Below, in pieces: positions 11,661 to 59,142 of a stretch of DNA of 64,000 nt (the stretch's first letter is position 1; every line of letters begins with the position of its first letter). The notes beneath the pieces are model-generated. The model did not search any database. It was not told the origin of the DNA and was given only the letters and a program-made list of their open reading frames with translations. This DNA is from a virus. Where the stretch lies: UHGV virus genome UHGV-0218015; one strand, 5' to 3'. Made by a program: the position numbers and the translations under genes.

Positions 11661-11900
11661 GATTTCGATGGCGATCAGTTACAATGCAGATTGGCAATCG
11701 ACCAGATTGAAATGGAACTGGGCATGGCTTATCGTCCAGACAACGGGTTTATGTCAAGCACGAATGTGGATGAGGTTTCGAGCTGCATGATTCTCCATAA
11801 CGAGAACATCAGCAACATAAACCGTTTCTTCCAGGATACTGAAGAGGACCTGGAGGCCGGTATCGCGCTTGACTCGGAAATATTAAAAATGGCGGGGTAA
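11661..11900 (+). CDS. RNA polymerase beta-prime-like subunit, N-terminal part, exon 2
   Basis: begins DFDGDQL...FMSSTN (cf. NADFDGDQM...MMSTNN); frame open to stop at 11900. Confidence 0.65.
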   Translation, partial: DFDGDQLQCRLAIDQIEMELGMAYRPDNGFMSSTNVDEVSSCMILHNENISNINRFFQDTEEDLEAGIALDSEILKMAG

Positions 11901-12957: not shown

Positions 12958-13626
12958 ATGGATCAAGAACCGGGAAAATTTAATGGGGTGCCCATTGAAG
13001 AACTTTCTGGCCGTGCTAAGTTTGAGTTTGAGAAACTTCTTGAAATGGAAGAGATGCTTAAACAGGGCCAGGGTGTGTGCAGCGTGTTTACTGAATCGAT
13101 GTTCCGTCGACAAGGTTTACCGCTGTTGTCGGGGATGCTGGACGGTACGTTTAACGAAGATACCTGGACGGATTATGTAGGGAACGCTTTCGTTCCGTTA
13201 CAGATTGTTTCGGATTCGGATAATTCAAAACTGCTCTTTACGATCCCGCCTCTGCTTAATACCGGTCGGTCACTTCAACATGTTGACGGTCAGCCATCGC
13301 TCACCGAAGAAACAGAGATGATTCGCCAGCAAGCCGATATCATTTCCGAGGTCGGTGAACGGCAGATGTATCAGATGATCGATTATACGCTGGATGGTAT
13401 CGAACAGTTATCGTACGAAGAAAATGCACTTCGTGCAAAACAGGTTATCGATCTGTTAAACTGGATCTTCCGTCGTTATAACGTATCAGGGCAATTACCT
13501 TATCCTGAAGGACTTGAAGAATTGTGCAACCGTATCCAAGGACGAAAGAAACCTGCAACGGCGGCACAACCTGAACAGTCCTCCCCTGCTAAGGGAAGAA
13601 GAATCATCGATGAAGAGGATTACTAA
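12958..13626 (+). CDS. hypothetical protein (222 aa)
   Basis: ORF; start 2 nt after upstream stop. Confidence 0.5.
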   Translation: MDQEPGKFNGVPIEELSGRAKFEFEKLLEMEEMLKQGQGVCSVFTESMFRRQGLPLLSGMLDGTFNEDTWTDYVGNAFVPLQIVSDSDNSKLLFTIPPLLNTGRSLQHVDGQPSLTEETEMIRQQADIISEVGERQMYQMIDYTLDGIEQLSYEENALRAKQVIDLLNWIFRRYNVSGQLPYPEGLEELCNRIQGRKKPATAAQPEQSSPAKGRRIIDEEDY

Positions 13627-14758
13627 TCCGCCACCGAAACCAGTTGGCGTCAAACGCATTTTCTCAACGGGCGATGTACATTTACTGCACCGTCGTGTAC
13701 CGACGTGGCATATTGTTAACGTGCTCAAGGAAACCTTAGAACGGTTCGATAATACGATTGACGCTATTTATATAGCTGGCGATTTATTTGATGATTCCCG
13801 GCATTTGCGGCAAGAAGATTCTCAAGAAGCCATAGGGTTTTTAACCTGGTTATTGCTCTGGGCCAAACAGACGAATACCGCTATTCGTGTCTTGGAAGGA
13901 ACACCCTCCCACGATCATAAACAATCGAAAATCGTTGAAGAGTTAAATCAGGCGGTGGGTGCAGATTGTTTGTATCTGGATAAGATTGGGGTGTTTTACG
14001 ACGAGGCGTTAGGAGCGACTATCGGTTGGGTCCAGGACGAGTATAAAGCCCTGGGTTCAGAGTCTATTGATGCTGCCGCAACAGAACAGGAAATGGCTGA
14101 ATTATTAGCCACGCGCGGTATACAGCAGATGGATTTCTGCTTTATGCATGGCTGCTTTCAGTTCCAAGTTCCCGTTGAGTCTACCCGCTTTTTCCATACA
14201 GATTTTTGGGAACCGTTAGTCAAGCATTTGATTATCATCCACCACGATCATCGTAGGAAACAATTGGGTAAGATTCGTGTACCAGGCAGCCCCGATCGCC
14301 TGGCAATGGGTGAAGAAGAGGACAAAGGCTTTGCTATTGTCGATTTCACTCCTGATTTAGCCAGAGATTATTTCTTGGTTAATGAACGCGCTTGCCCGCA
14401 GGTTAAAATTGCTGCGGAGGAGGACTACGAATCGCAGTACGCGAAATGTCTCTCTGCGCTTGAGTATATTGATACTCATCCGTCCTCGGTAATAGGACGA
14501 TTGGAAATTGAATATTATCCCGATTCTCCATTGGCGGAAGCCATTACTCGGTGGAAATCGCAATATTCATTCCATATTTCAGGTACGCGTATACGTACGC
14601 CTGAAGAGGAGCAAATTCTCGCAGCCGGTTTTGCTATCGACGCAGAGGTCGAGGAAACCATCTCTGAAGAGAATGTTGAAGCGATTTTGTTAGAAGCATT
14701 AGTGCCGTTTAAATACGATGCACAAATTGTCACTGACATTATCAGGAGCATCAAATGA
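13610..14758 (+). CDS. SbcD/Mre11-like calcineurin-type phosphoesterase (putative recombination nuclease)
   Basis: motifs STGDVHL, IAGDLFDD, GTPSHDH, IIIHHDH in canonical order; start at ATG 13610 with AAGGGA RBS (ORF open from 13514). Confidence 0.5.
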   Translation: MKRITNPPPKPVGVKRIFSTGDVHLLHRRVPTWHIVNVLKETLERFDNTIDAIYIAGDLFDDSRHLRQEDSQEAIGFLTWLLLWAKQTNTAIRVLEGTPSHDHKQSKIVEELNQAVGADCLYLDKIGVFYDEALGATIGWVQDEYKALGSESIDAAATEQEMAELLATRGIQQMDFCFMHGCFQFQVPVESTRFFHTDFWEPLVKHLIIIHHDHRRKQLGKIRVPGSPDRLAMGEEEDKGFAIVDFTPDLARDYFLVNERACPQVKIAAEEDYESQYAKCLSALEYIDTHPSSVIGRLEIEYYPDSPLAEAITRWKSQYSFHISGTRIRTPEEEQILAAGFAIDAEVEETISEENVEAILLEALVPFKYDAQIVTDIIRSIK

Positions 14759-25934: not shown

Positions 25935-25962
25935 CGAGAGGGGCCTGCGCCCCTCTTTTTTT
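25935..25962 (+). terminator. intrinsic terminator
   Basis: gaggggc ctg cgcccctc followed by T-run. Confidence 0.65.
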
Positions 25963-25975
25963 GTAAGAGGGGAGC

Positions 25976-30972: not shown

Positions 30973-31018
30973 GTATAAGGGAGTCTTTACGACTCCCTTA
31001 GCTTTTTCTTTTTTTTTT
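30966..31018 (+). terminator. intrinsic terminator
   Basis: aagggagtc ttta cgactccctt followed by long T-run. Confidence 0.65.
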
Positions 31019-31041: not shown

Positions 31042-31908
31042 TTGGAAAAGGCTATGATTGACATTTATACCGATTACGCCGCCGTTCTTACCGTCAATCG
31101 TGCGGAAGAACGTGCTGCGCCTTTCCTGGACTTAGTAACGCTGTGCATGGATTACGGTTACGATGTTGCGTTAAGCGATGTGTATTGGCAACCGTCGTCT
31201 GATCCTGCCGACGAAACCGTAAGACTGGAAGGGATTATTGTAAAATGCGCAGTGGCGTTAGGTAACCGTTTAGGCGTTGCTTTAAACCCACAAGAAGTTT
31301 TCCGTAAACCGAAAGAGACCGTACGTATTCTAGACGGCATTACGTCTAAATTCGAAGAGTTCGAAGACACCGATACGTTATACGGTCTCGTGATGTCTGG
31401 AGAAACGCCAGAGTTTATCCTGGAAAGTATCTGCCGTTACGTGTACGGCGACGATAATATCCATTTTGAAGATTTGGTCATTCGTGTTTCACCCCGTGTA
31501 ATGACAGTGATGCGTAATTATCTCTCAGCTATGGTTGTGGATGAGCAACTCGCTGTAGGTAACGATGTACGTCTGACGCGTATTGCAGAATACTTGCGTC
31601 TTTATCCGCAAAATCCCTCTGCGTTCGTATTCTTAAACTTACCTGAAGATCCTGATTTGACGGTTGTCCAACAATCGTTAGTCTTTGACGTCGAGGATTA
31701 CAGCGAAACAGAATTGCTCGAGATGTATACGGTAGGACTTTCGATTATCGATAACGATGACTTCGATGACGCGTATGCTGATCTTTCGACGAACTTAGAG
31801 AAACTTAATAATGATGGGTTACAACCCATTACTGTTTTACAACCCGCATTAAAAAGCCTACGGGTAATTTATCGGGTTGAGGAGGCAGAGCACGATGACG
31901 AGGTTTGA
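31042..31908 (+). CDS. hypothetical protein (288 aa)
   Basis: ORF. Confidence 0.5.
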   Translation: MEKAMIDIYTDYAAVLTVNRAEERAAPFLDLVTLCMDYGYDVALSDVYWQPSSDPADETVRLEGIIVKCAVALGNRLGVALNPQEVFRKPKETVRILDGITSKFEEFEDTDTLYGLVMSGETPEFILESICRYVYGDDNIHFEDLVIRVSPRVMTVMRNYLSAMVVDEQLAVGNDVRLTRIAEYLRLYPQNPSAFVFLNLPEDPDLTVVQQSLVFDVEDYSETELLEMYTVGLSIIDNDDFDDAYADLSTNLEKLNNDGLQPITVLQPALKSLRVIYRVEEAEHDDEV

Positions 31909-33196
31909 GTTCTTAGTAGCGGCATGTAAAGCCGAAGCATGGCGTCGCTTGGTCTGGCGTATTGCTATCTTTAACATGTCGGTGTTTCCAACTGGGCGTG
32001 AAGAACCCGAAGCGTTTGATATTACGTACATTGACGGCTTACCGCATTATTACGCTGTAGAAGACGGCAAGGGCAGTTGGGAACCGATTACCGATGGTGT
32101 AAAGGATCAGGAGCTGTTTATTCCTGAAGAACAGTTCGAACTCCGTCCCGACGACTATCCCGGTTTAGAAGGTCCTATCCCCACGACAGTAGGACGATAC
32201 GTTTTTAACTGGATTGTTATCTGGTATGCTTTCGGTACACGTTTACCCTATCTGGCGATTTCACAAAACCCGTTGGAATACCGCAAAGAGATGCATCGGC
32301 GTTGTTTAGACCATGAATCCGATGAGCCAGAAAACGAAGGTGCGATTCGACCGAGTATGATCGAACGCTTCGTAAGCGGCTTACACGAACTCGCTCCACT
32401 CACGTCAGGTATTGCACCAACCGGTACGTTACGAAGCCTTACGGTGCATCCTGATGCGTATAAAATCCGCGATGCGTTGCTGTTGAAGCACAAGGATGAA
32501 TTAGACGATCCTGCCGTTATCGTTAAGATTGAAAAAGCGTTGGATGAGTTAGACAAAGAGTGGTTGTCAGGTGACCAATCTATTGAGTTTTATAACTCGC
32601 CGAAATCACGGATGCGTCGACGTAAATTAATGCTGATGTACGGTATTGAATCGTCTTTTCAGGAAGGGGGGCATTATACGCTCATTCCGAACGCGTTAGT
32701 TGAGGTTGATAAGGCGGGGATGGAAAACCTGGTTGCGAAATTCAACTCTATTCGTGAAGGTTCATTCTCTCGTGGTGCGGAAACAGCGAAAGGGGGTGAG
32801 CAGGTACGTATTATCCAGATGATTTTCCAGAACCACCGAATCGTCCCTGGCGACTGCGGAACGAAACTAACGTACCCGGTTGTGATTACCGAAGATAACG
32901 TAAAACGTTACGTTGGGATGAATGCGATGGTTAATGGTAAACTGACACCACTGTCTGAAGAATATTTAAAGCAGCAGTTAGGTAAGGTGGTGCGGTTACG
33001 CCGACCCATCTTATGTCAGTATGGCCACATCGACACCTGCACAGCGTGTTCGTCTGCGAATAAAGGGGAAGAACCTCGTGCAATCGCTGCGGATATATCC
33101 TCGGCGTTCTCTAACGTTATGTCCGTGGCAATGGCCGCGATGCACGGTAAAGAGACTGTGGTACACGAATTTAATCCATCGATCCACATTACGTAA
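31895..33196 (+). CDS. hypothetical protein
   Basis: ORF 31877..33196; start moved to ATG 31895 with GAGGAGG RBS. Confidence 0.5.
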   Translation: MTRFEFLVAACKAEAWRRLVWRIAIFNMSVFPTGREEPEAFDITYIDGLPHYYAVEDGKGSWEPITDGVKDQELFIPEEQFELRPDDYPGLEGPIPTTVGRYVFNWIVIWYAFGTRLPYLAISQNPLEYRKEMHRRCLDHESDEPENEGAIRPSMIERFVSGLHELAPLTSGIAPTGTLRSLTVHPDAYKIRDALLLKHKDELDDPAVIVKIEKALDELDKEWLSGDQSIEFYNSPKSRMRRRKLMLMYGIESSFQEGGHYTLIPNALVEVDKAGMENLVAKFNSIREGSFSRGAETAKGGEQVRIIQMIFQNHRIVPGDCGTKLTYPVVITEDNVKRYVGMNAMVNGKLTPLSEEYLKQQLGKVVRLRRPILCQYGHIDTCTACSSANKGEEPRAIAADISSAFSNVMSVAMAAMHGKETVVHEFNPSIHIT

Positions 33197-33209
33197 GGAT
33201 TATTAGCCA

Positions 33210-33719
33210 ATGGCAACTAAAGATATTTCGACACAAGACGAGCGTCCGTCAGCTGTAAGACGTGCTGAGGAAAATGCGGTAAATTACAGCCAAGATGACG
33301 CGTACCAGGTGCGACTTATTGCTACCCAGCTCGATGAGGCTGGCGCGGCAATTAGCCAAAATAAACCGAAAGATACTCCAGAAGCTGACGATGCTTTCCG
33401 TAAGCTGCATCAATCGTTCCGTTCGTTATTTGAACTACGCGGTCAGGCGTTCGTTGATGCTTTCAACGTGTTCGTTGAAGCTGCAATTAAACACAAGCGC
33501 GGTATCTTCTACTATCCGAATGTGAACTACCATTTAGATTGGTTTTACGATTCCGCCGAACGTGAAACATACGTCGTGTTCATCAATATGTTAGTACGTT
33601 TCGCAAATTCCCAGGATAAAGCAAACTTCGCTCAGCGTGACAACGTTGGTCGTTTGGTACAACGTGTGACCGATCCAGAGCTGCAACACTTACTGGCTTA
33701 CTGCTTCAACGCGGCATAA
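33210..33719 (+). CDS. hypothetical protein (169 aa)
   Basis: ORF followed by bidirectional terminator. Confidence 0.5.
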   Translation: MATKDISTQDERPSAVRRAEENAVNYSQDDAYQVRLIATQLDEAGAAISQNKPKDTPEADDAFRKLHQSFRSLFELRGQAFVDAFNVFVEAAIKHKRGIFYYPNVNYHLDWFYDSAERETYVVFINMLVRFANSQDKANFAQRDNVGRLVQRVTDPELQHLLAYCFNAA

Positions 33720-33724
33720 AAGTA

Positions 33725-33768
33725 TTACCCTACTCCCGATGGGAGTAGGGTAACGTTTATTTTTTTTT
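33725..33768. terminator. bidirectional hairpin terminator (repeat family copy 1)
   Basis: ttaccctactcc ... ggagtagggtaa plus T-run; same 12-bp stem as 39087..39114. Confidence 0.65.
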
Positions 33769-35548
33769 ACTTTGCGGCTTTGATGTATTCAAAAGGATCG
33801 GTAATTGCTTCTCCTTGTCGACGTAGAAAAGCTTCTAAGACGTCGTTTTTATCGGGCAATAGGAAGAAATCTGTCGCGATCTCCATTGCGTTAACGCGAC
33901 CTGCAGTAAGGTTAATACCGACGCGACGCCGTACTTCTTCAGGAACACCGTGAATGCTTAATAACTCGATTAACGTCGTCTCACGAGACTGGTTCATCAT
34001 GTTTGTTGCGGATGGGTATGCCTGGGTTAAGTCAGCATCTGCGGTTTGACCACGGAAAGCCGTGTAGAAATCATCAACCTCCTTGATGATGTTTCGTAGG
34101 CCATTCTCTGCGTTCATACACGCGGTCAATGTAACAATCCAACCGTCTGTCCCAATGACTTCATTGTCAAAATCGTTACGCATCGCGCTACCCACACAGC
34201 CGATAACCAGACCTTGTTCGTAGAGGTAGTACGTGTACGCAATACAGATTCGCTTCGGCAGAGAAGGGAAGATATCGTACATCGAATAACCTGCCAACAC
34301 TGAAATAGCAGAAGACAGATCGTTCGTCTTTTTATCAAGCAGAACAATCATCAGGTTATCGAAGATGTTATAAACGCAGTATTCTAACGGGAAATCTTTC
34401 TGTGCCTTTAAGTGCCATTCCAATTTTTCCTCGTAGGGTAAATCCGGTAAGTCTAACTTGTTTAAACCCAACTCGGTTTCCAGTATCGCGTTAAGTTTGT
34501 AAGAAGGACGTTGCCCTTCGTGTACACGCAATGAACGGAATAGACACATCGCATCTACACAGTAGAATGACGCCGTACAATAAAGAATGTGCCACTGCTG
34601 CGAAGGTGCTTTTGTTAGTGACTTTGATTCCGTTTTCTTCGATGCTTCGTCTTTCTTAAAGTAGACACGACGGTACTGTTTCGGCACGTCTGGATGACAG
34701 AAGACGTCTTCCGGTGGAATGCCCGCTGCTTCTAAAGCTTCTAACATACGTGAAATATCGAACTCGTGGTTCCATGCGACGAGTAAGTCAGGGAGACGAG
34801 GGTGGATTTCCTCAAACATACGTTGAATACAACAACCCGAATTGAGACATTCGTAAACGAAGATTTTGTAACCGTCGATAACGTTTTTGTATTTAACGAT
34901 AGGATTGTCGTTCTCGTCTTTTCCACGAAAAGCGATTTTAGAAAGCAAATCCTGAGCACGATTGACGAGTCGCGCTTCAAAGTTTTCACGTCCGCAGCGT
35001 GTGACGTAGTCTTTCGTAGCAAAGAAATGAATCTCGTCGTCTAAAACAAAACTCATAATCCAGGGGTCTCGAGATTTGTCTTCTTCTCGAGTTTCCACGT
35101 CGTATACACAGATGCGGTTGGGTGAAACAGCATTAGGCCATTTACGCATGTACTTTTCTTTAATCCAGCTCGTAATGGGCAAATCGGCCCAGTAAACAAA
35201 CGGTGAAGTACAAACTTGGCGGAGCGGTTTCTTTTTGTCGGGAAAACGAATCCCCAAACCCATCTGTATGGTTGAGGACATCATTACATCCGTTGTTAAA
35301 TATTCCTGACACTTACTACGTTCCTCGTATTCCTTCTTTTCCTTGTGGTTACGATGTTGTGGTAAAGTAATGTAGATGGGACGTTTCAGATTTTCACGCA
35401 TGACAATTCGTGGGATATATCTGCCATCTTTAGTATGGACGACCTCCTTTATGAGCACGAAGTCGTTTTCTTTCTGCTGATCGGTTGCGTAAGAAACAAA
35501 CTTGCACTCCTTGGCAATAACGTCTTCCGGTGCGTAATAGTTATTCAT
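33767..35548 (-). CDS. family-B-type 3'-5' exonuclease domain protein (putative DNA polymerase N-terminal/exonuclease subunit)
   Basis: Exo I CVYDVETRE, Exo II AWNHEFDISRM, Exo III YCVDAMCL; start taken at Met 35548 (RBS), ORF open to 35662. Confidence 0.55.
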   Translation of the reverse strand: MNNYYAPEDVIAKECKFVSYATDQQKENDFVLIKEVVHTKDGRYIPRIVMRENLKRPIYITLPQHRNHKEKKEYEERSKCQEYLTTDVMMSSTIQMGLGIRFPDKKKPLRQVCTSPFVYWADLPITSWIKEKYMRKWPNAVSPNRICVYDVETREEDKSRDPWIMSFVLDDEIHFFATKDYVTRCGRENFEARLVNRAQDLLSKIAFRGKDENDNPIVKYKNVIDGYKIFVYECLNSGCCIQRMFEEIHPRLPDLLVAWNHEFDISRMLEALEAAGIPPEDVFCHPDVPKQYRRVYFKKDEASKKTESKSLTKAPSQQWHILYCTASFYCVDAMCLFRSLRVHEGQRPSYKLNAILETELGLNKLDLPDLPYEEKLEWHLKAQKDFPLEYCVYNIFDNLMIVLLDKKTNDLSSAISVLAGYSMYDIFPSLPKRICIAYTYYLYEQGLVIGCVGSAMRNDFDNEVIGTDGWIVTLTACMNAENGLRNIIKEVDDFYTAFRGQTADADLTQAYPSATNMMNQSRETTLIELLSIHGVPEEVRRRVGINLTAGRVNAMEIATDFFLLPDKNDVLEAFLRRQGEAITDPFEYIKAAK

Positions 35549-35619
35549 GATTTCACTCTCAAATCTAGCGGCTGCTATACTGATTTGTGGGTAATGTAAT
35601 TTCTCAAAAGGAAACACAA

Positions 35620-36954
35620 ATGGGATATTGGCAAAATCACATTGCATCAGTTGCGGATGCAAAGGTTGTAGCCGCAGAATCGATTAAATTCCAAGACAAA
35701 AAGAAGCTGGCAGAATTGGCTGATGTTATTGCTAAGTTTCGTGGGGCAGGCGATTTCAGTCCTGCGGGCTACGAAAGTGCCGGGGTTTCGGATTGGGTAT
35801 TTAAGAATATCGGCATTACGATTCACTTTAAGAACGGTGGCGAACTGGGTCTTGCTGACGTCGCTTTTGCAGGTGTAGAACCACCGAAATTGGATGCAAA
35901 CAGCCCAATCATCGCGTCGATGACTCGCGCACTGTACGCAGGTAACAAAGACCTGGATATGTACAGTAAGTTCATCAAAGAAAACGAACTAAACACAACA
36001 ATCGATGACAGCAGTGCAAGAATCAGTGGTGACCTAAGCAAAGTAGGTTCTCCGCTTTACCTTACCCCGGTGCTGCTGGAAAAACTAAACTTGACCGATC
36101 TGGAGATCGCTTCGGTGATTCTTCACGAGGTGGGGCACATCTACTATTATTTCCGTACGCTGATGCGCACTGTAGTGACTGATTTGCTGGCAGATGCTGC
36201 GGCTAACCGCATTATGGAAACGGAAGACCAAACTGTCCGCCTGCGTATCGTTAAAGACGTGGAAAAGATGCTGAACACGAAAGTGAATCAGCCGGAAACG
36301 ATTTGTACTGAGTACAAAAAAGAAAACGTCTATATGCACCTAGTCACACAGCTGTTATTAGATCGTCCGTACATTAGCGGCAGTCAAGGCTTTGCTAACA
36401 GGACATGGGAACGTGCTGCGGATGATTTTGCTTCCCGCTTTGGCGGCGCTCCTTATCTGGCCTCGGCACTGTATAAAATGGAAACCAGTCCGTTCTATTT
36501 GCTGCGGAACTCAGCGTATATGAACATGGGTGTCCATTTGACACTGGAGCTTTTCCGCGTGACTGCGCTGATAGTTTCTTCTACGATTCCAATTATTCCG
36601 GTGATCTCTGTGACGTTCGGAATGATCTTAAATGACCCGGATAACACCATTTACGATCCGCCGCAGCAGCGTTTTGAGGCGATGCGTCGTACACTCGTTG
36701 AAGAACTCAATACGATTAAAGACAAGAATACGAAAGCTGCTAACGAACAACGTAAACGTATTCTGGATGGTATTGCGGTTATCGACAAGCTGTTAGAAAC
36801 GGTAAAAGACAAAGATAATCTGTATCAGTTTATCTGGAATACCTTGACGCCGAAGGGTCGTCGTTCACGTGCTGCTGTGGACTATCAGCGTGCAATCGGG
36901 AAGTACATGTCGAATGACCTTCGTATTGCTTCAGCCATGTTTAATGTCGAATAA
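35620..36954 (+). CDS. putative HExxH zinc metallopeptidase-like protein
   Basis: VILHEVGHIY motif; start at ATG 35620 with AAAGGA RBS (ORF open from 35587). Confidence 0.4.
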   Translation: MGYWQNHIASVADAKVVAAESIKFQDKKKLAELADVIAKFRGAGDFSPAGYESAGVSDWVFKNIGITIHFKNGGELGLADVAFAGVEPPKLDANSPIIASMTRALYAGNKDLDMYSKFIKENELNTTIDDSSARISGDLSKVGSPLYLTPVLLEKLNLTDLEIASVILHEVGHIYYYFRTLMRTVVTDLLADAAANRIMETEDQTVRLRIVKDVEKMLNTKVNQPETICTEYKKENVYMHLVTQLLLDRPYISGSQGFANRTWERAADDFASRFGGAPYLASALYKMETSPFYLLRNSAYMNMGVHLTLELFRVTALIVSSTIPIIPVISVTFGMILNDPDNTIYDPPQQRFEAMRRTLVEELNTIKDKNTKAANEQRKRILDGIAVIDKLLETVKDKDNLYQFIWNTLTPKGRRSRAAVDYQRAIGKYMSNDLRIASAMFNVE

Positions 36955-36968
36955 GTAAAGGTAAAATC

Positions 36969-37412
36969 ATGACGCATAAAGTTTCTTTAAACTCCTTAGT
37001 TCTGGACTTTAAACGTACGAACGAGGGTAAGGGAGTACAGGCACAACGTGCTCTGACTGGCCTGGTTGCATTCACACTGGCGTATAACGCCGATATGCCC
37101 GATAATGGACCGCTGGGAGCGAATGAGGTAGCACAACTTAAACTTCGTCCGCTGATGAAAAACGTTGTGTCCGATGTGAATGAACTCTATTGTGTCGACC
37201 TGGGCAGCATCGAAGATTTGACCGTTGGGCTATTCTGTAACCGTTACGACAGTGCTTGGGGCGGTCGTCGCGCTATTGAGAATTTCTCTGTTCGTGAGAT
37301 TTTCAATGAAGCGCTGGGCGATGATGTATGGGATACCGTTAACCTGTGGCTGGAACGCTTCATGGAAACGGTGAAATTCTATATGGATGAAACGCGAGGC
37401 AAACTGGTATGA
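36969..37412 (+). CDS. hypothetical protein (147 aa)
   Basis: ORF. Confidence 0.5.
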   Translation: MTHKVSLNSLVLDFKRTNEGKGVQAQRALTGLVAFTLAYNADMPDNGPLGANEVAQLKLRPLMKNVVSDVNELYCVDLGSIEDLTVGLFCNRYDSAWGGRRAIENFSVREIFNEALGDDVWDTVNLWLERFMETVKFYMDETRGKLV

Positions 37413-39079
37413 GCATGGAGATGATGGCAAACATTGCGCAACCGCAGTGGAAACTCGATGAACTTCCTGCGTTATTAGAACAACGTATGGAAGAACGAAT
37501 CGATTCTGTTAGCCAACTCAATCTCTACATGCAGCGTAATGAAGCAGACCTGATCTACGGTTCTCGTCTTATCGCACAGATTGAAGCGATTCTGCGTGAA
37601 ATCCGTAAAGCAGGATTGAACCGTGATGTTGCTGTAGCGACTGAATCTTTGCGTCCTGGCACGATCCCGAAGGCTGTACAAAGTGTACTGACGTCGAATT
37701 ATTCCAAAACACACCAGAAAGAAACGGTGGTGGCATTAGAGTCTTACGCTAATTTCGGTAAGATTAGCCTTATCGTGATGGTGATGATGGGGATAATGAA
37801 AATCCTCAGTTGGATTATCAGCAACGCTGTTCCTTTTGCGGGCGCTGCGAACATTGACGGGAACGACTATCGCGAGAAACTGGAAGAGAAGTTGGCCGAT
37901 CTTCCTTTCACAGAGCGCTTGAAAACTACTGTACTGAAAGAAGTTTATCTGGTACTGTCAAAAGGTTTGAAAGACAGCGAGTTAAGCAACCTGGAGTTAT
38001 CTCTTTCACTGGCCGACGATGTTTTCGTGAACATGGAAGCTGAAGAGTTTCTAAATAAACTCGCCGCCGCGTTAGGGAAATCGCCGTTTATCGATACGTT
38101 TAAGAACCACCTTAAACGACGTCAGAATGAGCTGCAGGTTATTCAGGATCTGCTAGATACGCTGCTACGGACGAACATCGGTTACGGTGTATTTGATTTC
38201 GGGGTTGCTGAGGAAGTCTATAACGGTTTGCCGCCTGATGTGAAACGTGCTGGTGTGAACATTCCGTCAGATACCCAGTTCAACCTAATGAGCATGATTC
38301 TTGACAGTTTTGCTCGTGCGCTTCAGGACTTAGACCAGTCGCTGAAAGATATCAAAACTTACTACCTGTCAAATAACCCGAAGGTAGGCACGTCGCAAGA
38401 GAACCAAGTTGCTGCGGTGCATCTGGTCCGTGCGTTAGGTGAGATCAACGGCCGAATTGAATTTACTGCCACGGAGTTCGGTCGACAGAAAGGTAGCCCG
38501 GGCCCAATTTTGCGTGTAAAAGACAAGGTTGAGCTTCTCGGTTATACCACACGTGAATTAGACAACGGTTGGATGATTGCATCAGTCGGTGTTAACTCTT
38601 TCTTTGGCTCCACAACAAACCTGGAGATGATGCGCCAGGAGTTGAGCTTAAGTAACGGCGACTATCGTGAGCTGTTAGCATGTCTGATTACGCTGGCACG
38701 TAGTGGTATCTCGGACGGTGTGGCGAATACTGCGCTGGACAAGTATAAAGTGTTGGAAAAACGTGTCGATCAGGTTGTAAAAACGCTGAAAGAGATGGCG
38801 CGTCAGTCACGTTCTGGTGTTGACACTGAGAAATGGCAGGCGATGGAACAGGCGTTTAAAGACCAGGTGACGCGAAGGGAAAATTTTAACATTCACGGTC
38901 GTGAATTGACCACGATGATGGTGTTAAACCCTGACCGTAATGTCTGGGATTCTGTTGCGCATAGTGCAAATATGATTAACATGTGGTGCAAGGCTGCAGG
39001 GTCTATGGCAACGGTGTTGAAACGCGCCAAGTCCAACCCACTTGTAAAAGGCGGGAAGTTCAATAAATTAGTTGATTAA
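37409..39079 (+). CDS. hypothetical protein (556 aa)
   Basis: ATGA overlap with upstream gene. Confidence 0.5.
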   Translation: MSMEMMANIAQPQWKLDELPALLEQRMEERIDSVSQLNLYMQRNEADLIYGSRLIAQIEAILREIRKAGLNRDVAVATESLRPGTIPKAVQSVLTSNYSKTHQKETVVALESYANFGKISLIVMVMMGIMKILSWIISNAVPFAGAANIDGNDYREKLEEKLADLPFTERLKTTVLKEVYLVLSKGLKDSELSNLELSLSLADDVFVNMEAEEFLNKLAAALGKSPFIDTFKNHLKRRQNELQVIQDLLDTLLRTNIGYGVFDFGVAEEVYNGLPPDVKRAGVNIPSDTQFNLMSMILDSFARALQDLDQSLKDIKTYYLSNNPKVGTSQENQVAAVHLVRALGEINGRIEFTATEFGRQKGSPGPILRVKDKVELLGYTTRELDNGWMIASVGVNSFFGSTTNLEMMRQELSLSNGDYRELLACLITLARSGISDGVANTALDKYKVLEKRVDQVVKTLKEMARQSRSGVDTEKWQAMEQAFKDQVTRRENFNIHGRELTTMMVLNPDRNVWDSVAHSANMINMWCKAAGSMATVLKRAKSNPLVKGGKFNKLVD

Positions 39080-39086
39080 AAAAAGA

Positions 39087-39130
39087 TTACCCTACTCCCG
39101 GAGGAGTAGGGTAACTTTTATTATTTTTTC
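39087..39130. terminator. bidirectional hairpin terminator (repeat family copy 2)
   Basis: ttaccctactcc cgga ggagtagggtaa plus T-rich tract. Confidence 0.65.
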
Positions 39131-42085
39131 TTAATCGGCGGTAGTATCGTGGCGGTTATAAACAATAACGATATCGTCTTTAAGTCCGATGTCGCCGCTG
39201 GCCTCAATGTCCAGCTTTTTACCTATAGTTGCTCTTGATGCTTCTGAGACAACGGTAAAGAGACGCATGTCTTTATCTGGCCCCATAGCATCGAGTTCAA
39301 CACCGATAATAGACGCATCGAGGGTTTCACTCAACGCATTACCGATTTCGGTTGCAGAGATTGTTAGATGGCTACCCAAGTAATCGTTGATAACCTGAGA
39401 AGTTTTCTTACGAATCTGCGTTAAGAGCTCGGTGTTATTACGGTTAGCAGCCGTTAGGTAATAGCGTACTGTGAACTGGTTTTCCGCAGGGACAGGTGTT
39501 ACTACCCCGTCCTCTGTACGAGCGTCGATATACCCCATTGTTGTAATCGGCACAAAGTAACCTTCGGTGCGTTCTAACAACATAGGCTTCAAAGTCGGGA
39601 GTATTACCGTGACGTAGTTAACGATGTTTTCGATAACTTCATTCAGATACGATTTCGCAGAAGGTGTCGTCGCGAATTTATATCGCGCATCGAACACTGC
39701 CATCTCACTCCGGAATTTGATAGAACGCGATTTCGCAATTTTCGGATTACCAAACTCGTCTTTAACTAAGTCTCCCTCACGGTGTAGGACGATCTGTTCC
39801 CCAGCTTCGTCGAGTTTAGGATCACCTTTACGATGTTCGTACGTGATCTGAAGTGGTGGTGTGCGGCCTGCATCGTAAGTATAGATTGGTACACCATTCT
39901 CATCGCGTTTAACAACATCGATCTCCCACGTTGCCATCACGTCTTGTTCGTAATACTGGTAGTTAATGCTGTCAGTAACAGCACGCGCTTTACGCCAGTA
40001 GTACGTCATTGCCTTACCCAATTCGATTTTGAAAATTTCATGGGTAATACCTATCGCATCACGTGATGGGGCAGTGATTAACGCATCCATTTCCGCACGT
40101 TCGTAATTGCCAGGGTAGTAACCCGTGCAGCCGTAGAACAGGTTGAAGTCTGTTGTCAGCGGTACAGGCGTTTCCGTTGGCGTGCTACTACTAATACGCG
40201 TATTCGTTAGTACCAATTCGTCATTACGGTCAACGTCCAGGTTGGTTTCCAGTAGGAACTCCCATACACGTTCGCTACCCTGCTTACCGACTAACGTACC
40301 GTTGATGTACGCTAAAGTGTTGTCTGCGTTACGCGGACGGAACGATAGCTGCGCAAAAACTTGGTCGTCGGTCAGTGCTTGATAAGGTGCCTCCGACTTC
40401 GTTACGGTACGCAAAACATAACCGGCTTCGGTCTTTTCGATAGTGTAGTCGGCCGTTACCACACTGAGTTCCGTACTTACGTTAGTAGCAATAAAGCGTT
40501 TGGAGTTTAACGTCGGTTTATCTAATTGATAAATACGAACGTCAATGGCTTTATTGTTGATATCCACAACGTAATGGAATGGTGTAAAGAGATAACGATT
40601 AGCGTTGGCCGCGTTAATCAAATCTTCTTTACGCATGGTTTTTGCTAAGACCGTCATTTCCGCATCAACCGTCAGGCTGGTGTCGGTGAATCGATAAAGC
40701 GTATCAGGAAGAATCGTCAGGCGATTACCGTTAACCTTTACCGTCGGCAGATTAACCAATTCATTCCAGGAGAAATAGAACGGTGCCGTGATTGTCCCGA
40801 TGGGAGAACTGACGTTGGGGATTGTCGAATCGAGCATCGGTGCCGTTAAGAAGTATGTACGGCTGGTAACATAGTCGTTTGGTTTCGACAACGTTAGGCC
40901 GTAATCGGAAACCGTTGCTTCTAATTGTTTCTCCGTTACAGGGAGTTTTCGTGCACCTACAGCGTTATTGACCACACGTGTACGCAAATCTTCGAACGTG
41001 AGCTGACTACGTCCACCTGATAACATTTTACCCGCTTTTGCAGCCATCTGTTTGATGGAAAAACTCTTAATCGGGTTAACGTAGTTTTCGTCGTACTCAC
41101 CGTTTAAATCGCGCAGCGTGAACGTGTATTCGTCAGACGGATAAGCCGAGATATCGACACTCAAAGGCCCTAAGGTCGTGTAGATATCCATGCGAATTTC
41201 GCCACTTACCAAATTCTTCGCCATGTAGATCGAAGGGATGGTACACCGTATAACACCGTCACCGACCTGAATCAACGCCGTTGGGGTGTTGGGGTCGTAA
41301 ACGTCACGACTGTGCGTATGTTGAATTTCAACCCACTTGTTATCGTTGGTTGATTTCATCCACACCCTTACGTAGAAAAATTTGTTAGTGTAATGGCGGG
41401 TCATGACAAAGGTATTTTTCCCCGCAACAGTGTCACTTTCGTTCTTCACCGCGTACTGCATGACGGGGATATGGATTGCCAGCAGTTGTGAAGCCGTGGT
41501 GTTAGACGATGTCAATTCCCAGTCCAGCGCATTCGTTGAGACAGGAGAAATAGGTGACTGTGTTTCGGTAATCCATAGAACCTGAAAAGCTGGGTTTTCA
41601 TTGGTGCCGTATGGAAGTACCCTGATTTCAATCGGGTATTGGATGGCGAAGGTGTAACCTGAAACCGTGAAAACTGTGTCTCGAGGGATAACAACTTTAC
41701 GCACACCCGCTATTTGCAAAGGGTACGCCTTGGAGATTAAACTGTCAACGTCGATTAATAACAACAACTCGGTGGTCGAAGGTTGGGCGAACACATCAAC
41801 ATAGTCCACATCGGACATATGTCGGAACAGGTCATCGTACGTTTGCGCCATCGATGGAAAAGTCTTTGGTACCGATTCTTGCAAACCCATGAGCGTCGCA
41901 TGACCTAACATTGTCCCCATTTCCGCCAAGTAAACAACAGGGTCTGTTGGATCACGTAACACTATTTGGCCTTCGGCGTCTTCTACATCCAGAAGCTGAT
42001 TCAAGAGCAGTGTTTGCATCGCTGCCGGATGGTGGGCAAACAACAATATGTTCTTTGCCAAAGTATCGTAAGTCGTAGAACTCAT
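39131..42085 (-). CDS. large hypothetical protein (984 aa), possibly virion structural
   Basis: long minus-strand ORF, stop/start overlap with the next minus gene; no motif recognised. Confidence 0.5.
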   Translation of the reverse strand: MSSTTYDTLAKNILLFAHHPAAMQTLLLNQLLDVEDAEGQIVLRDPTDPVVYLAEMGTMLGHATLMGLQESVPKTFPSMAQTYDDLFRHMSDVDYVDVFAQPSTTELLLLIDVDSLISKAYPLQIAGVRKVVIPRDTVFTVSGYTFAIQYPIEIRVLPYGTNENPAFQVLWITETQSPISPVSTNALDWELTSSNTTASQLLAIHIPVMQYAVKNESDTVAGKNTFVMTRHYTNKFFYVRVWMKSTNDNKWVEIQHTHSRDVYDPNTPTALIQVGDGVIRCTIPSIYMAKNLVSGEIRMDIYTTLGPLSVDISAYPSDEYTFTLRDLNGEYDENYVNPIKSFSIKQMAAKAGKMLSGGRSQLTFEDLRTRVVNNAVGARKLPVTEKQLEATVSDYGLTLSKPNDYVTSRTYFLTAPMLDSTIPNVSSPIGTITAPFYFSWNELVNLPTVKVNGNRLTILPDTLYRFTDTSLTVDAEMTVLAKTMRKEDLINAANANRYLFTPFHYVVDINNKAIDVRIYQLDKPTLNSKRFIATNVSTELSVVTADYTIEKTEAGYVLRTVTKSEAPYQALTDDQVFAQLSFRPRNADNTLAYINGTLVGKQGSERVWEFLLETNLDVDRNDELVLTNTRISSSTPTETPVPLTTDFNLFYGCTGYYPGNYERAEMDALITAPSRDAIGITHEIFKIELGKAMTYYWRKARAVTDSINYQYYEQDVMATWEIDVVKRDENGVPIYTYDAGRTPPLQITYEHRKGDPKLDEAGEQIVLHREGDLVKDEFGNPKIAKSRSIKFRSEMAVFDARYKFATTPSAKSYLNEVIENIVNYVTVILPTLKPMLLERTEGYFVPITTMGYIDARTEDGVVTPVPAENQFTVRYYLTAANRNNTELLTQIRKKTSQVINDYLGSHLTISATEIGNALSETLDASIIGVELDAMGPDKDMRLFTVVSEASRATIGKKLDIEASGDIGLKDDIVIVYNRHDTTAD

Positions 42086-43383: not shown

Positions 43384-43409
43384 CTTTAACTCCGGAGTTC
43401 ATTAGGAAA

Positions 43410-57324: not shown

Positions 57325-58140
57325 ATGATTACTATTAAAGATTATTTTCCGCGTGGGCTGAGCAATGAAAACTTCGTTCCAACTGAAGACATTGCCATCG
57401 TTGCAGAGTCTAACGATAAGTCTTTTAAACTCTACTTGAGTACGGCAGCAGGAAAATCTACTCTTATCCTTCGTGAACCTGAAGTGATAAGCATCTGCTC
57501 GTTTAGGGGCGGTGTAGAAGGAACGATTAACTGGTTGAAATCCAGAATGCATCGTTTACTTATCGTGAATACCGATCCTACGATTCGATTACAGCAATTG
57601 AAATCGTTGAATGAAGTTATCGTCGGATTATTGGAACATGAAACGTTCGGTAATGCTGAGATTGCGGAAGCGATTAAATCTGTAGAACTAATCGAGTGGA
57701 GTGATATCGAATACGAACGTGCTGCGTTATTCGCAATGCACGGTGACGATAATCCCGTTGTGTTTGCACAAACGTTGGATAATGTTACCGTGACGGCACG
57801 CGTATTGTTCGGCTTGCAACGTGTTGAGTTTGAACTGAAACACGTTTATGTAAGTAATACCCCAGAGATGGTGGAAACGTTGACTCGTGCGTTCGCTTAC
57901 CCGTTAGACGGAGAATGGGAACAGCAGATTAATGAAGCGTTAGGCGCAATGCTGTTCTTAGCAGGCACACTAAGGAAAGAAGAGAAATTAGAAGGTCGTG
58001 TTTATCCAGAATACGATTTTGTTTGTGAAGAATGTGGAGCACAGTATCAAATACGTGTTCCTTTAACCGGCCTGACAATCCCGAAAGCCAACGTGGAATG
58101 TAAAGAATGTGGCCATGTCCAATACGTAGCGACTAAATAA
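57325..58140 (+). CDS. hypothetical protein (271 aa) with C-terminal zinc-ribbon motif
   Basis: C-terminus CEECGAQYQ...CKECGH (CxxC...CxxC). Confidence 0.5.
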   Translation: MITIKDYFPRGLSNENFVPTEDIAIVAESNDKSFKLYLSTAAGKSTLILREPEVISICSFRGGVEGTINWLKSRMHRLLIVNTDPTIRLQQLKSLNEVIVGLLEHETFGNAEIAEAIKSVELIEWSDIEYERAALFAMHGDDNPVVFAQTLDNVTVTARVLFGLQRVEFELKHVYVSNTPEMVETLTRAFAYPLDGEWEQQINEALGAMLFLAGTLRKEEKLEGRVYPEYDFVCEECGAQYQIRVPLTGLTIPKANVECKECGHVQYVATK

Positions 58141-58146
58141 AAGCAA

Positions 58147-58190
58147 CCCCTAATCCCGAAAAGGATTAGGGGTACACTTTATTTATTTTC
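58147..58190 (+). terminator. intrinsic terminator
   Basis: cccctaatcc cgaaaa ggattagggg followed by T-rich tract. Confidence 0.6.
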
Positions 58191-58197
58191 GCAAATT

Positions 58198-58281
58198 CAA
58201 CAGCTTGGATTAAATAAAAGGTTTAAACCTTCTAATAATCGACGAGTACAAATCTTCACCGAAAGGAGAAGTAACTACTAA
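58198..58281 (+). pseudogene. 3' remnant of a small paralogous gene (no start codon)
   Basis: encodes ...QQLGLNKRFKPSNNRRVQIFTERRSNY*, homologous to the C-terminus SQLGTDKRLKPSTNRFTQIFTEKRSEHY* of the 58438..58611 ORF; no in-frame ATG. Confidence 0.4.
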
Positions 58282-58313
58282 ATAAAATAAAGGGGTGCTG
58301 TCACACCCCTTAT

Positions 58314-58350
58314 CATAGCTTTAACTTTTCGAAAAGAGAAGTTAAAGCAG
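58314..58350 (+). repeat. 37-nt palindromic element, copy 1
   Basis: catagctttaacttttcgaaaagagaagttaaagcag, identical at 58715..58751; 9-bp inverted repeat ctttaactt/aagttaaag. Confidence 0.6.
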
Positions 58351-58437
58351 GGTACGCTGTAGCACCAGCGTACCCTTTACAACACCACTACGTTTCCGTA
58401 GTGGATTTCTTTAATCACCCTACAAAGAGGGCTTACC

Positions 58438-58611
58438 ATGAACAATGGTTACTACTTTACCGACAAAATGCTTGCAGAACAGAGTGCAGCAAAGACCAAT
58501 TTACAGCAACGTATCTACAAGTATAGTCAGCTCGGCACGGATAAACGGTTAAAACCGTCTACCAACCGTTTCACGCAGATATTCACTGAAAAGAGGAGTG
58601 AACACTACTAA
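58438..58611 (+). CDS. small protein (57 aa), member of local paralog family
   Basis: not in ORF track; MNNGYYFTDKMLAEQSAAKTNLQQRIYKYSQLG...; preceded by 37-nt element and RBS. Confidence 0.4.
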   Translation: MNNGYYFTDKMLAEQSAAKTNLQQRIYKYSQLGTDKRLKPSTNRFTQIFTEKRSEHY

Positions 58612-58714
58612 CAAATAAAGGAGAGGCGTGTCAGCGCCTCTCCTCCTCGTACAGTAACCTGCCGAGATGGTGGTCGTAGGTATAATAAAAAAGGGGTGGT
58701 GAAGCACCCCTTTT

Positions 58715-58751
58715 CATAGCTTTAACTTTTCGAAAAGAGAAGTTAAAGCAG
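58715..58751 (+). repeat. 37-nt palindromic element, copy 2
   Basis: identical to 58314..58350; followed by a different perfect 9-bp hairpin. Confidence 0.6.
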
Positions 58752-58837
58752 CAGAGACTGGCGGAACAGTCTCTGCTGTACGGTGTCAACACATAAAGTT
58801 GTTGACGTTTTTACAACATTACGAAAGGTAATGAAAA

Positions 58838-58999
58838 ATGAACGAATATCAAATACAGATGTTCAATACCGCGATGCGAAATCGTGAAAAACAAATTCAG
58901 TTTAACCAACGCATGGACGAATATGTTCGTCTCGGCCTCGTTGCGGCACCGAAAACGGTTAACAACCACAATGTTCAGCAACCACCTCTAAGGAGATAA
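58838..58999 (+). CDS. small protein (53 aa), member of local paralog family
   Basis: not in ORF track; MNEYQIQMFNTAMRNREKQIQFNQRMDEYVRLG...; similar to 58438..58611 product. Confidence 0.4.
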   Translation: MNEYQIQMFNTAMRNREKQIQFNQRMDEYVRLGLVAAPKTVNNHNVQQPPLRR

Positions 59000-59142
59000 G
59001 TTACTAACTAATAAAGGGGGTGGTAGCAACACCCCCTACTTAGTTCGGTAGTTGTTTTCCGTTCATAATTAATAGCCTTCTGTTTTTTTTTGCTTTTCGA
59101 GACGCATAAGGGGTTATAGGGGGGAGCCGAAGCTCCCCAGAC

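What the first reader, a model, noticed from the sequence alone, without database searches (positions are those of the whole stretch)
33725..39130. Near-identical hairpin terminators bracketing a 5.4-kb module that contains the exonuclease gene
The bidirectional terminators at 33725..33768 and 39087..39130 share the same 12-bp stem (ttaccctactcc / ggagtagggtaa) and similar flanks, while other terminators in the window have unrelated stems. They bracket a block of four genes (exonuclease protein on the minus strand, HExxH protein, 147-aa and 556-aa proteins). Repeated terminators could be recombination scars marking a mobile module, or a conserved terminator class read by a specific factor.
Basis: seen in the sequence. 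Interest (0 to 1): 0.35.

Follow-up and report, generated by a model that had tools for sequence, protein, structure and literature searches.

The report
Repeated two-way terminator hairpins, jumbo phage
The two near-identical hairpins are ordinary two-way transcription stop signals between converging genes of a giant phage, and they match because they belong to a small family of copied stop-signal cassettes, not because the genes between them form a mobile block.

Summary
T1 (33725-33753, 13-bp stem) and T2 (39087-39114, 12-bp stem) share the arm TTACCCTACTCC. They are the only stem-sharing pair among about 14 strong intergenic hairpins in the window. Each lies between two converging genes, with an A-run before it and a T-run after it, so it should act as a two-way intrinsic terminator. 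The window is an SPN3US-like jumbo phage.

The "mobile module" reading fails. The gene order around both hairpins is identical in SPN3US, ChrisDB and 12 IMG/VR relatives, and divergence shows no step at either hairpin.

The same 11-bp stem sits at five dispersed sites in the 98.7%-identical relative. Three of them lie outside the window, and four of the five are at converging-gene junctions. In other lineages the orthologous sites carry TACCCACTCC, so the stems changed together within each lineage.

In SPN3US, 20 of 54 strong intergenic hairpins have G-free, C-rich 5' arms, and several stems occur two or three times. This resembles the conserved terminator motif published for phiKZ.

The loops of hairpins with stems of 10 bp or more are exactly inverted between near-identical genomes, a signature of template switching.

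Verdict: a new member of a known kind, of modest interest.

The parts
33712..33724 (.). A-rich 5' flank of T1 (ataaaagtat). On the minus-strand transcript it is the U-rich tail after the hairpin (UACUUUUAUG).
33725..33753 (.). T1 hairpin: 13-bp perfect palindromic stem TTACCCTACTCCC / GGGAGTAGGGTAA with loop GAT. It starts 6 nt after the stop codon of the 169-aa ORF (+) and ends 13 nt before the stop codon of the 631-aa ORF (-).
   Evidence: RNA fold about -22 to -24 kcal/mol on either strand, z -4.2 and -5.2.
33754..33768 (+). T-run after T1 (cgtttattttttttt), containing the TTTAT element that recurs after terminators of this class.
39077..39086 (.). A-run before T2 (taaaaaaaga). It overlaps the stop codon of the 556-aa ORF and gives the U-run (UCUUUUUUUAA) for minus-strand transcripts.
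39087..39114 (.). T2 hairpin: 12-bp perfect stem TTACCCTACTCC / GGAGTAGGGTAA with loop CGGA, between the 556-aa ORF (+) and the 984-aa ORF (-).
   Evidence: Fold z -4.75 and -8.3.
39115..39130 (+). T-run after T2 (cttttattattttttc).
33210..33719 (+). 169-aa ORF ending at T1 (PHROG 7825, function unknown). It is the last gene of a plus-strand run that includes an RNA polymerase beta-type subunit gene (31877-33196).
   Evidence: Orthologues: ChrisDB gp59, SPN3US gp223.
33767..35662 (-). It ends at T1.
   Evidence: PHROG 3011, E 4.6e-249. Annotated as DNA polymerase in relatives. No Pfam or PDB sequence hit.
35587..36954 (+). 455-aa ORF with HEVGH at residue 180. Its orthologues are annotated as virion structural proteins.
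   Evidence: Weak sub-threshold Peptidase_M48 match.
36969..37412 (+). 147-aa ORF, function unknown.
37409..39079 (+). 556-aa ORF ending at T2. Its 3' third (about 38.0-38.9 kb) is much more divergent than its surroundings in the 79%-identical relatives.
39131..42085 (-). 984-aa virion structural protein ORF ending at T2.

Best explanation
T1 and T2 are two-way intrinsic (hairpin plus U-run) transcription terminators. Each sits where two converging transcription units meet in an SPN3US-like jumbo phage, a group that transcribes with its own multisubunit RNA polymerases. Because the DNA stem is a perfect palindrome flanked by an A-run and a T-run, transcripts from either strand form the same 12-13-bp RNA hairpin followed by U residues.

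They are identical because they are two of five copies per genome of a cassette of about 45-55 bp (A-run, stem TACCCTACTCC, short loop, T-run). The other three copies lie outside the window. The cassette family belongs to a wider phiKZ-like terminator class with a G-free, C-rich 5' arm, a G-rich 3' arm and a TTTAT tail.

Within each lineage the copies have been made uniform, most probably by DNA-level copying between sites. The candidates are ectopic gene conversion or replication template switching, both helped by the palindromes. Selection for a perfect stem that works in both directions then held them fixed.

Shown here:
- the anatomy of both hairpins
- the conserved gene order around them
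- the copy number and positions of the family
- the change of stems together within lineages
- the loop inversions

Inferred:
- that they terminate transcription in vivo
- that the phage polymerases are the enzymes stopped
- that copying between sites, rather than selection alone, made the stems uniform
For: Anatomy:
- Perfect stems, short loops and A/T flanks.
- The terminator scan ranks them top on both strands.
- Strong folds on both strands.
- A position a few nt beyond the stop codons of converging genes.

Phage identity: the window is SPN3US/Machinavirus-like and carries RNA polymerase subunit genes.

The block is not a cassette:
- Gene order is identical in ChrisDB, SPN3US and 12 IMG/VR relatives.
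- There is no divergence step at either hairpin.

Family size:
- The 98.7% relative (IMGVR_UViG_3300045988_113438) has TACCCTACTCC hairpins at contig positions of about 39.3, 44.6, 117.9, 159.0 and 178.4 kb.
- The 94% relative also has five.
- Four of the five are at converging junctions.
- T3 and T4 are orthologous to sites in SPN3US, phiEaH2 and ChrisDB.

Stems change together within lineages:
- Window lineage: TACCCTACTCC at T1-T5.
- phiEaH2: TACCCACTCC at four sites, including T1, T2 and T3.
- ChrisDB: TACCCACTCC at three sites and CCTCACTACC at two.
- SPN3US: four different stems at T1-T4.

Copying of whole units:
- ChrisDB T2 and T4 are identical over hairpin, loop and 14 nt of flank.
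- 078609 T2 and T4 share hairpin, loop and 11 nt of flank.
- phiEaH2 T1 and T3 share the loop.

Wider class:
- In SPN3US, 20 of 54 strong intergenic hairpins have a G-free 5' arm against 5 with a C-free arm (binomial p 0.004).
- Most of the 15 converging junctions carry TACC/CTCC-type stems.
- Three stems are multi-copy.

Published precedent:
- phiKZ has 61 intrinsic terminators sharing the motif BCCYCCCCHWWDGGGRRGGBYTTAT, and 6 two-way termination regions between converging genes (PMC10914365).
- 201phi2-1 has 132 terminators, 15 of them two-way, shared motifs, and 8 validated in vivo (PMC11512511).

DNA-level hairpin dynamics: exact loop inversions occur only at stems of 10 bp or more. This is a known template-switch signature (PMC8794818; PMC8604942).
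Against: - There is no transcript 3'-end data for this phage or any SPN3US-like phage, so termination is inferred from anatomy and from phiKZ and 201phi2-1.
- The window's own genome outside the 64 kb was not available. The count of five comes from relatives that are 98.7% and 94% identical.
- Stems are only 10-13 nt and of low complexity (C/T/A). This limits the power of any orthologue-versus-paralogue test.
- Non-family hairpins (30976, 25937) are also unchanged across the window lineage, so stem conservation alone is not special.
- Gene conversion over about 25-50 bp of homology is inefficient in well-studied systems.
- In the window itself, T1 and T2 differ in loop and partly in flanks, so no recent copying event is visible there.
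- One relative (IMGVR_UViG_3300031418_000005) carries three stem variants at once, so the copies are not always uniform.
Confidence: 0.72

Rival explanations
1. The stem is kept identical at all sites because a lineage-specific factor recognises that sequence, and factor and sites co-evolve. The factor could be a phage RNA-binding or termination/antitermination protein, or a sequence preference of the phage RNA polymerase. On this reading copying between sites is secondary.
For: - The stem is unchanged at four orthologous sites between lineages that are only about 79% identical in nucleotides.
- Arm composition is strongly biased: G-free 5' arm with recurring TACC(C) and CTCC(C) blocks.
- The 201phi2-1 authors suspect antitermination.
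Against: - A factor does not explain how five sites acquired the same one-base-pair insertion in both arms. Some copying step is still needed.
- SPN3US tolerates four different stems at T1-T4, and one relative has three variants at once.
- Control hairpins outside the family are equally unchanged.
- No candidate factor was identified.
Confidence: 0.14
2. The repeated hairpins are recombination scars or exchange points that delimit a mobile 5.4-kb gene module, in the manner of the PeSL cassettes of T4-type phages.
For: - Repeated terminator-type stem-loops do mediate modular exchange in T4-like phages (PMC2839356, PMC4122927).
- The two copies are in direct register and bracket a discrete set of genes.
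Against: - The gene order is the same in every relative examined.
- The content is core genes: a DNA polymerase part and virion proteins.
- Divergence shows no step at either hairpin.
- There is no adjacent promoter-like element.
- Three further copies lie elsewhere in the genome, at least two of them (T3, T4) at junctions conserved across the group.
Confidence: 0.03
3. The hairpins are small mobile palindromic elements, like REP elements or MITEs. They would be spread by a transposase-like enzyme, or they would be duplex-DNA binding sites for a dimeric protein, and they only look like terminators.
For: - Identical short palindromes lie in extragenic space, often between converging genes.
- The set of occupied sites differs between genomes: T5 is only in the window lineage, and T6 and T7 only in others.
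- GTAG/CTAC tetranucleotides lie inside the arms (seen directly in the sequence).
Against: - There are only about five copies.
- No transposase or RAYT-type product appears among the 266 annotated SPN3US features.
- Most sites are orthologous rather than new insertions.
- Loop length varies from 3 to 7 nt and loops flip, which does not fit fixed half-site spacing for a dimer on duplex DNA.
- The A-run and T-run are always present, as termination requires.
Confidence: 0.05
4. The identity is coincidence or convergence within a narrowly constrained terminator class, with no shared history and no copying.
For: The class uses a three-letter, C-rich alphabet with recurring blocks, which raises the chance of matches.
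Against: - Even with class composition, a shared 12-mer among 14 hairpins has P of about 5e-3.
- Five identical 11-mers have P of about 1e-16.
- Whole cassettes, including loops and flanks, are identical in ChrisDB and in contig 078609.
Confidence: 0.03

Closest known systems
Conserved intrinsic terminator motif of phage phiKZ (Putzeys et al. 2024, PMC10914365) and terminator motif A of phage 201phi2-1 (PMC11512511)
   Same: - The phage type is the same: a jumbo phage with its own multisubunit RNA polymerases.
- The hairpin has a C-rich 5' arm and a G-rich 3' arm, followed by a (T)TTAT element.
- The same motif is reused at many terminators.
- Two-way terminators lie between converging genes.
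   Different: - The literal phiKZ motif (CCYCCCC...GGGRRGG) is not matched. Here the arm is TACCC-TA-CTCC, with A and T interruptions.
- The stems are longer (11-13 bp against about 7-8).
- The family is small (five exact copies) and made uniform within a lineage.
- There is no transcript-end mapping for SPN3US-like phages.
Two-way intrinsic terminators between converging genes in bacteria (general knowledge; also the 6 phiKZ and 15 201phi2-1 cases)
   Same: A symmetric hairpin with an A-run upstream and a T-run downstream lies a few nt past both stop codons.
   Different: In bacteria such terminators are normally unique in sequence. Here one stem is reused at five sites.
PeSL promoter-terminator cassettes of T4-type phages (Arbiol et al. 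2010, PMC2839356; Comeau et al. 2014, PMC4122927)
   Same: Short repeated regulatory cassettes that contain a stem-loop, dispersed in a large lytic phage genome.
   Different: - PeSLs combine an early promoter with the stem-loop, and they flank variable genes in hyperplastic regions where indels occur.
- Here there is no adjacent promoter-like site, the flanking genes are core and keep their order, and there are no indels at the hairpins.
Template-switch mutations at inverted repeats: arm homogenisation and spacer (loop) inversion (PMC8794818; PMC8604942)
   Same: Exact loop inversions with perfectly maintained arms, dependent on stem length.
   Different: Those studies concern changes within a single hairpin. 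Making stems uniform between dispersed hairpins is my inference and is not described there.
REP/BIME elements and DNA-uptake-sequence inverted pairs that double as terminators in bacteria (from my own knowledge)
   Same: One palindromic sequence is reused at many extragenic sites and often serves as a terminator.
   Different: Those have tens to thousands of copies and a known driver (a RAYT transposase, or DNA-uptake bias). Here there are five copies and no driver has been identified.

Membership tests
Intrinsic (factor-independent) terminator, two-way | Stable GC-containing RNA hairpin with a short loop | tested here: met
   12-13-bp perfect stems, loops of 3-4 nt. Hairpin about -22 to -26 kcal/mol on both strands, z -4.2 to -8.3.
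Intrinsic (factor-independent) terminator, two-way | U-rich tract directly 3' of the hairpin on each transcribed strand | tested here: met
   Plus strand: cgTTTaTTTTTTTTT (T1) and cTTTTaTTaTTTTTT (T2). Minus strand: uaCUUUUAUg (T1) and uCUUUUUUUaa (T2). All four pass the scan.
Intrinsic (factor-independent) terminator, two-way | Located just downstream of the stop codons of two converging genes | tested here: met
   There are 5-16 nt between each stem and each stop codon. The arrangement is the same in all relatives.
Intrinsic (factor-independent) terminator, two-way | Transcript 3' ends map at the U-tract in vivo | not testable with these tools
   No RNA data. Needs Term-seq or ONT-cappable-seq.
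phiKZ-type conserved terminator motif class | Host genome is a phiKZ-like jumbo phage that encodes its own multisubunit RNA polymerases | tested here: met
   SPN3US/Machinavirus relatives. RNA polymerase beta-type subunit ORF at 31877-33196. Several RNA polymerase subunit genes in SPN3US.
phiKZ-type conserved terminator motif class | C-rich 5' arm and G-rich 3' arm | tested here: met
   The T1 and T2 5' arms have no G and 6-7 C. In SPN3US, 20 G-free arms against 5 C-free arms among 54 hairpins.
phiKZ-type conserved terminator motif class | TTAT element after the stem | tested here: met
   TTTAT follows T1 on both strands and T2 on the plus strand. It is absent from T2 on the minus strand.
phiKZ-type conserved terminator motif class | Literal match to BCCYCCCCHWWDGGGRRGGBYTTATKYYGT | tested here: not met
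   By inspection, the arm TTACCCTACTCC(C) has A and T where the motif needs C or Y, and the stem is longer. It works like the class but is not the same motif.
PeSL cassette (T4-type phages) | Stem-loop joined to an early promoter | tested here: not met
   No promoter-like site lies within about 150 nt of either hairpin. That scan covers sigma-70-type promoters only, so a phage-specific promoter cannot be excluded.
PeSL cassette (T4-type phages) | Flanks variable genes, with indels between close relatives at the cassettes | tested here: not met
   Gene order is identical in all relatives and there is no divergence step.
REP/RAYT-type mobile palindromes | High copy number and an associated Y1-transposase (RAYT) gene | tested here: not met
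   Five copies per genome. No transposase-like product among the annotated SPN3US features. I did no profile search of all proteins.

The most novel reading that the evidence does not exclude
The terminator cassette of about 50 bp is not merely conserved. It actively propagates or is actively corrected between dispersed sites of the jumbo-phage genome. Possible drivers are hairpin-targeted breakage by the phage's SbcCD-type nuclease followed by repair from another copy, or a lineage-specific factor that co-evolves with the stem. If so, a phage would keep a private, self-homogenising set of two-way stop signals for its own RNA polymerases.
Probability: 0.12. Interest if true: 0.6.

Novelty: new member of a known kind. 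Interest (0 to 1): 0.3.

Why it matters
The finding removes a false lead: this is not a mobile gene module. It also extends to the SPN3US/Erwinia jumbo-phage group something so far documented only for the Pseudomonas phages phiKZ and 201phi2-1. These phages, which use their own RNA polymerases, reuse a characteristic terminator design with a C-rich arm.

Two by-products could be useful:
- A small set of strong, symmetric, sequence-defined two-way terminators, which are candidate parts for engineering.
- A clean natural example of dispersed regulatory hairpins that change together within a lineage and whose loops flip by template switching. Both can be tested by deep sequencing of phage stocks.

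Tried and rejected
- Rfam: no family matches the hairpins (E up to 1 on 33000-40000; gathering scan of the whole window).
- The inner palindrome ACTCC/GGAGT as a separate DNA motif: ACTCCGGAGT occurs once exactly and is not enriched.
- Recombination breakpoints at the hairpins: 300-nt sliding identity against four relatives shows no step.
- Host-like terminator: the TACCCTACTCC hairpin occurs once in 596 Gb of bacterial and archaeal genomes, on an unrelated MAG contig.
- Filling the T3 and T4 columns of the site-by-genome table with single-protein locus searches reached only close relatives. I used translated comparisons of pattern-derived loci instead.
- Pfam and PDB sequence searches of the 631-aa ORF gave nothing. 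Only PHROGs and the relatives' annotation name it a DNA polymerase.
- Using stem conservation as evidence for sequence-specific recognition: rejected, because control hairpins are equally unchanged.
- De Bruijn assembly artefact as the cause of the loop flips: judged unlikely by reasoning. The whole hairpin is 28-29 nt, shorter than the usual final k-mers, and the flips occur only at stems of 10 bp or more. I did not test this on reads.
Full report
**1. Observation**

T1 (33725-33753, ttaccctactccc-gat-gggagtagggtaa) and T2 (39087-39114, ttaccctactcc-cgga-ggagtagggtaa) are present as described. The 12-mer occurs nowhere else in the window; hits with two mismatches are scattered and form no hairpins. 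A scan for perfect hairpins of 8 bp or more gives about 14 GC-containing intergenic hairpins, and T1 and T2 are the only pair that shares a stem. A shared 12-nt arm among 14 hairpins has probability of about 5e-6 with uniform bases, and about 5e-3 with the biased arm composition of this terminator class. Similarity outside the stems is limited to about 10-15 nt of A-rich and T-rich flank.

**2. Setting**

Both hairpins lie where a plus-strand gene and a minus-strand gene converge: 169-aa ORF then T1 then the 631-aa ORF, and 556-aa ORF then T2 then the 984-aa ORF.

- The 631-aa ORF is a DNA polymerase part (PHROG 3011).
- The ORF upstream of the 169-aa ORF is an RNA polymerase beta-type subunit.
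- The 432-aa ORF beyond the 984-aa ORF is a tail-tube protein.
- The 455-aa ORF carries HEVGH.

The window is a jumbo phage distantly related to Salmonella phage SPN3US and to Erwinia Machinavirus phages. Nucleotide identity is about 74-77%, and it is detectable only in the polymerase gene.

**3. Terminator anatomy**

On either strand the RNA forms the same 12-13-bp hairpin (about -22 to -26 kcal/mol; z -4.2 to -8.3 against shuffles) followed by a U-rich tract. No Rfam family matches. This is the anatomy of a two-way intrinsic terminator. Termination itself is inferred, not shown.

**4. The bracketed block is not mobile**

- In ChrisDB and SPN3US the gene order is identical: RNA polymerase subunit, hypothetical, then DNA polymerase converging; virion protein, hypothetical, hypothetical, then virion protein converging; tail tube.
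- Twelve IMG/VR relatives, with polymerase identity from 100% down to 65%, all have both junctions, and a hairpin at each.
- Sliding-window identity between the window and four relatives (98%, 94%, 79%, 79%) shows no step at 33.7 or 39.1 kb.

**5. More copies exist**

A relaxed pattern search of IMG/VR found the hairpin TACCCTACTCC...GGAGTAGGGTA at five places in the 98.7%-identical contig IMGVR_UViG_3300045988_113438: about 39.3, 44.6, 117.9, 159.0 and 178.4 kb. It found five in the 94% relative and four in a 79% relative. The three extra sites (T3-T5) do not map into the window. Four of the five are converging junctions.

Translated comparisons show that T3 is orthologous to sites in SPN3US and phiEaH2. 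T4 is orthologous to sites in ChrisDB and two other genomes. Further site groups (T6, T7) carry family stems only in other lineages.

The hairpin is essentially specific to this phage group: there is one unrelated hit in 596 Gb of cellular genomes.

**6. Stems change together within lineages**

- Window lineage: TACCCTACTCC at T1-T5.
- phiEaH2: TACCCACTCC at T1, T2, T3 and T6.
- ChrisDB: TACCCACTCC at T2, T4 and T7, and CCTCACTACC at T1 and one more site.
- SPN3US: four different stems at T1-T4 (CCTCTCTACC, CTACCCTCTCC, CTTACCCACTCCC, CTACCTACTCC).

For the window lineage to differ from the common TACCCACTCC by the same extra base pair at five sites, either ten parallel insertions or copying between sites is needed.

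Copying of whole units is visible elsewhere:
- ChrisDB T2 and T4 are identical over hairpin, 6-nt loop and 14 nt of flank.
- Contig 078609 T2 and T4 share hairpin, loop and 11 nt of flank.
- phiEaH2 T1 and T3 share the loop.

Beyond about 15 nt, similarity drops to background. The repeated unit is therefore a terminator cassette of about 45-55 bp.

Two caveats apply. Control hairpins outside the family (30976, 25937) are also unchanged across the window lineage, so conservation alone is not diagnostic. One relative carries three stem variants at once.

**7. A wider class**

I retrieved the complete SPN3US genome.

- Most of its 15 converging junctions carry stems built from TACC(C) and CTCC(C) blocks. 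One of them has the window-type ACCCTACTCCC.
- Of 54 strong intergenic hairpins, 20 have a G-free, C-rich 5' arm and 5 have a C-free arm (p 0.004).
- TTCG/CGAA loops dominate.
- Three stems are multi-copy: ACCCACTCC three times, ACCCTACTCC twice, CCCTCTTACC three times.

This parallels published transcript-end maps. phiKZ has 61 intrinsic terminators sharing BCCYCCCCHWWDGGGRRGGBYTTATKYYGT, and 6 two-way regions between converging genes (PMC10914365). 201phi2-1 has 132 terminators, 15 of them two-way, with shared motifs and 8 validated in vivo (PMC11512511). T1 and T2 share the design (C-rich arm, G-rich arm, TTTAT) but not the literal motif.

**8. Loop inversions**

Between the window and its 98.7% relative, T1, T2 and the 10-bp hairpin at 30976 are exact reverse complements, so only the loop is inverted. 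All twelve hairpins with 7-8-bp stems in the same 18 kb are unchanged. Two near-identical contigs (L007 and L016) differ by inversion of the same three loops. T4 and T5 also flip between contigs 078609 and 14543, and an unrelated group of phage contigs of about 38 kb shows the same behaviour.

This is the known signature of replication template switching at inverted repeats. The same process also keeps arms perfectly complementary (PMC8794818; PMC8604942). It shows that these palindromes are active at the DNA level, and it makes copying between sites mechanistically plausible, though unproven.

**9. Verdict**

The 'terminator class' reading is supported in general form, without evidence for a dedicated factor.

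T1 and T2 are two members of a small family, made uniform within the lineage, of two-way intrinsic terminator cassettes of the phiKZ-like design. This is a new member of a known kind and of modest interest.

Noticed in passing
window 30976-31000, 33725-33753, 39087-39114 (compared with L006, L007, L008, L016): The loops of all three hairpins with stems of 10 bp or more are exactly inverted between near-identical genomes. Twelve hairpins with 7-8-bp stems in the same 18 kb are unchanged. This is the signature of replication template switching.
   Followed up: yes
window 11301-11612 (+): Group I catalytic intron (Rfam RF00028, 60.5 bits, above the gathering score). It overlaps the 3' end of ORF 9943-11442 and ends just before ORF 11616-11900, so it probably interrupts one gene.
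   Followed up: no
window 58140-59143: A stretch of about 1 kb with only small ORFs and about eight hairpins. A 65-nt unit (hairpin AAGGGGTG..CACCCCTT plus CATAGCTTTAACTTTTCGAAAAGAGAAGTTAAAGCAG) is repeated 401 nt apart (58286-58350 and 58687-58751, 91% identical). It looks like a duplicated small-gene cassette with its own regulatory signals. No tRNA was found.
   Followed up: partly
window 25937-25972: Two overlapping alternative hairpins: AGAGGGGC/GCCCCTCT (terminator-like, followed by a T-run) and CCCCTCTT/AAGAGGGG. The second would sequester the ribosome-binding site of the next gene (start 25976). The arrangement is conserved in SPN3US and ChrisDB, so it may be a switch between an RNA polymerase subunit gene and the helicase gene.
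   Followed up: partly
window 43385-43400: Perfect palindrome AACTCCGGAGTT in the 27-nt gap between the diverging tail-tube gene and the next gene. It is conserved in all relatives examined. It occurs only once in the window, so it is not a repeated motif.
   Followed up: partly
window 38000-38900: The 3' third of the 556-aa ORF is far more divergent (55-64% nucleotide identity) than its surroundings (about 80%) in the 79%-identical relatives. This is a fast-evolving or exchanged gene segment that ends near T2.
   Followed up: no
SPN3US genome (L174-L178), positions 67345, 94154, 180981: A second multi-copy terminator stem, CCCTCTTACC-TTCG-GGTAAGAGGG, occurs at three same-direction junctions. 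Reuse of terminator stems is therefore general in this phage group.
   Followed up: partly
loci L089-L145 (IMG/VR): The stem type CCTC[N]CTACC...GGTAG[N]GAGG recurs, often several times per genome, in many other jumbo-phage contigs of 220-276 kb with different flanks. The hairpin TACCCCCTCC recurs in a group of contigs of about 38 kb, again with flipped loops.
   Followed up: no
window about 13514-14758 (orthologue of SPN3US gp239): From its position in the conserved gene order, this ORF appears to be the orthologue of the gene annotated in SPN3US as the SbcD-like subunit of a palindrome-specific nuclease. I did not test this by a sequence search. It is a candidate enzyme for breaks at the terminator palindromes.
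   Followed up: no
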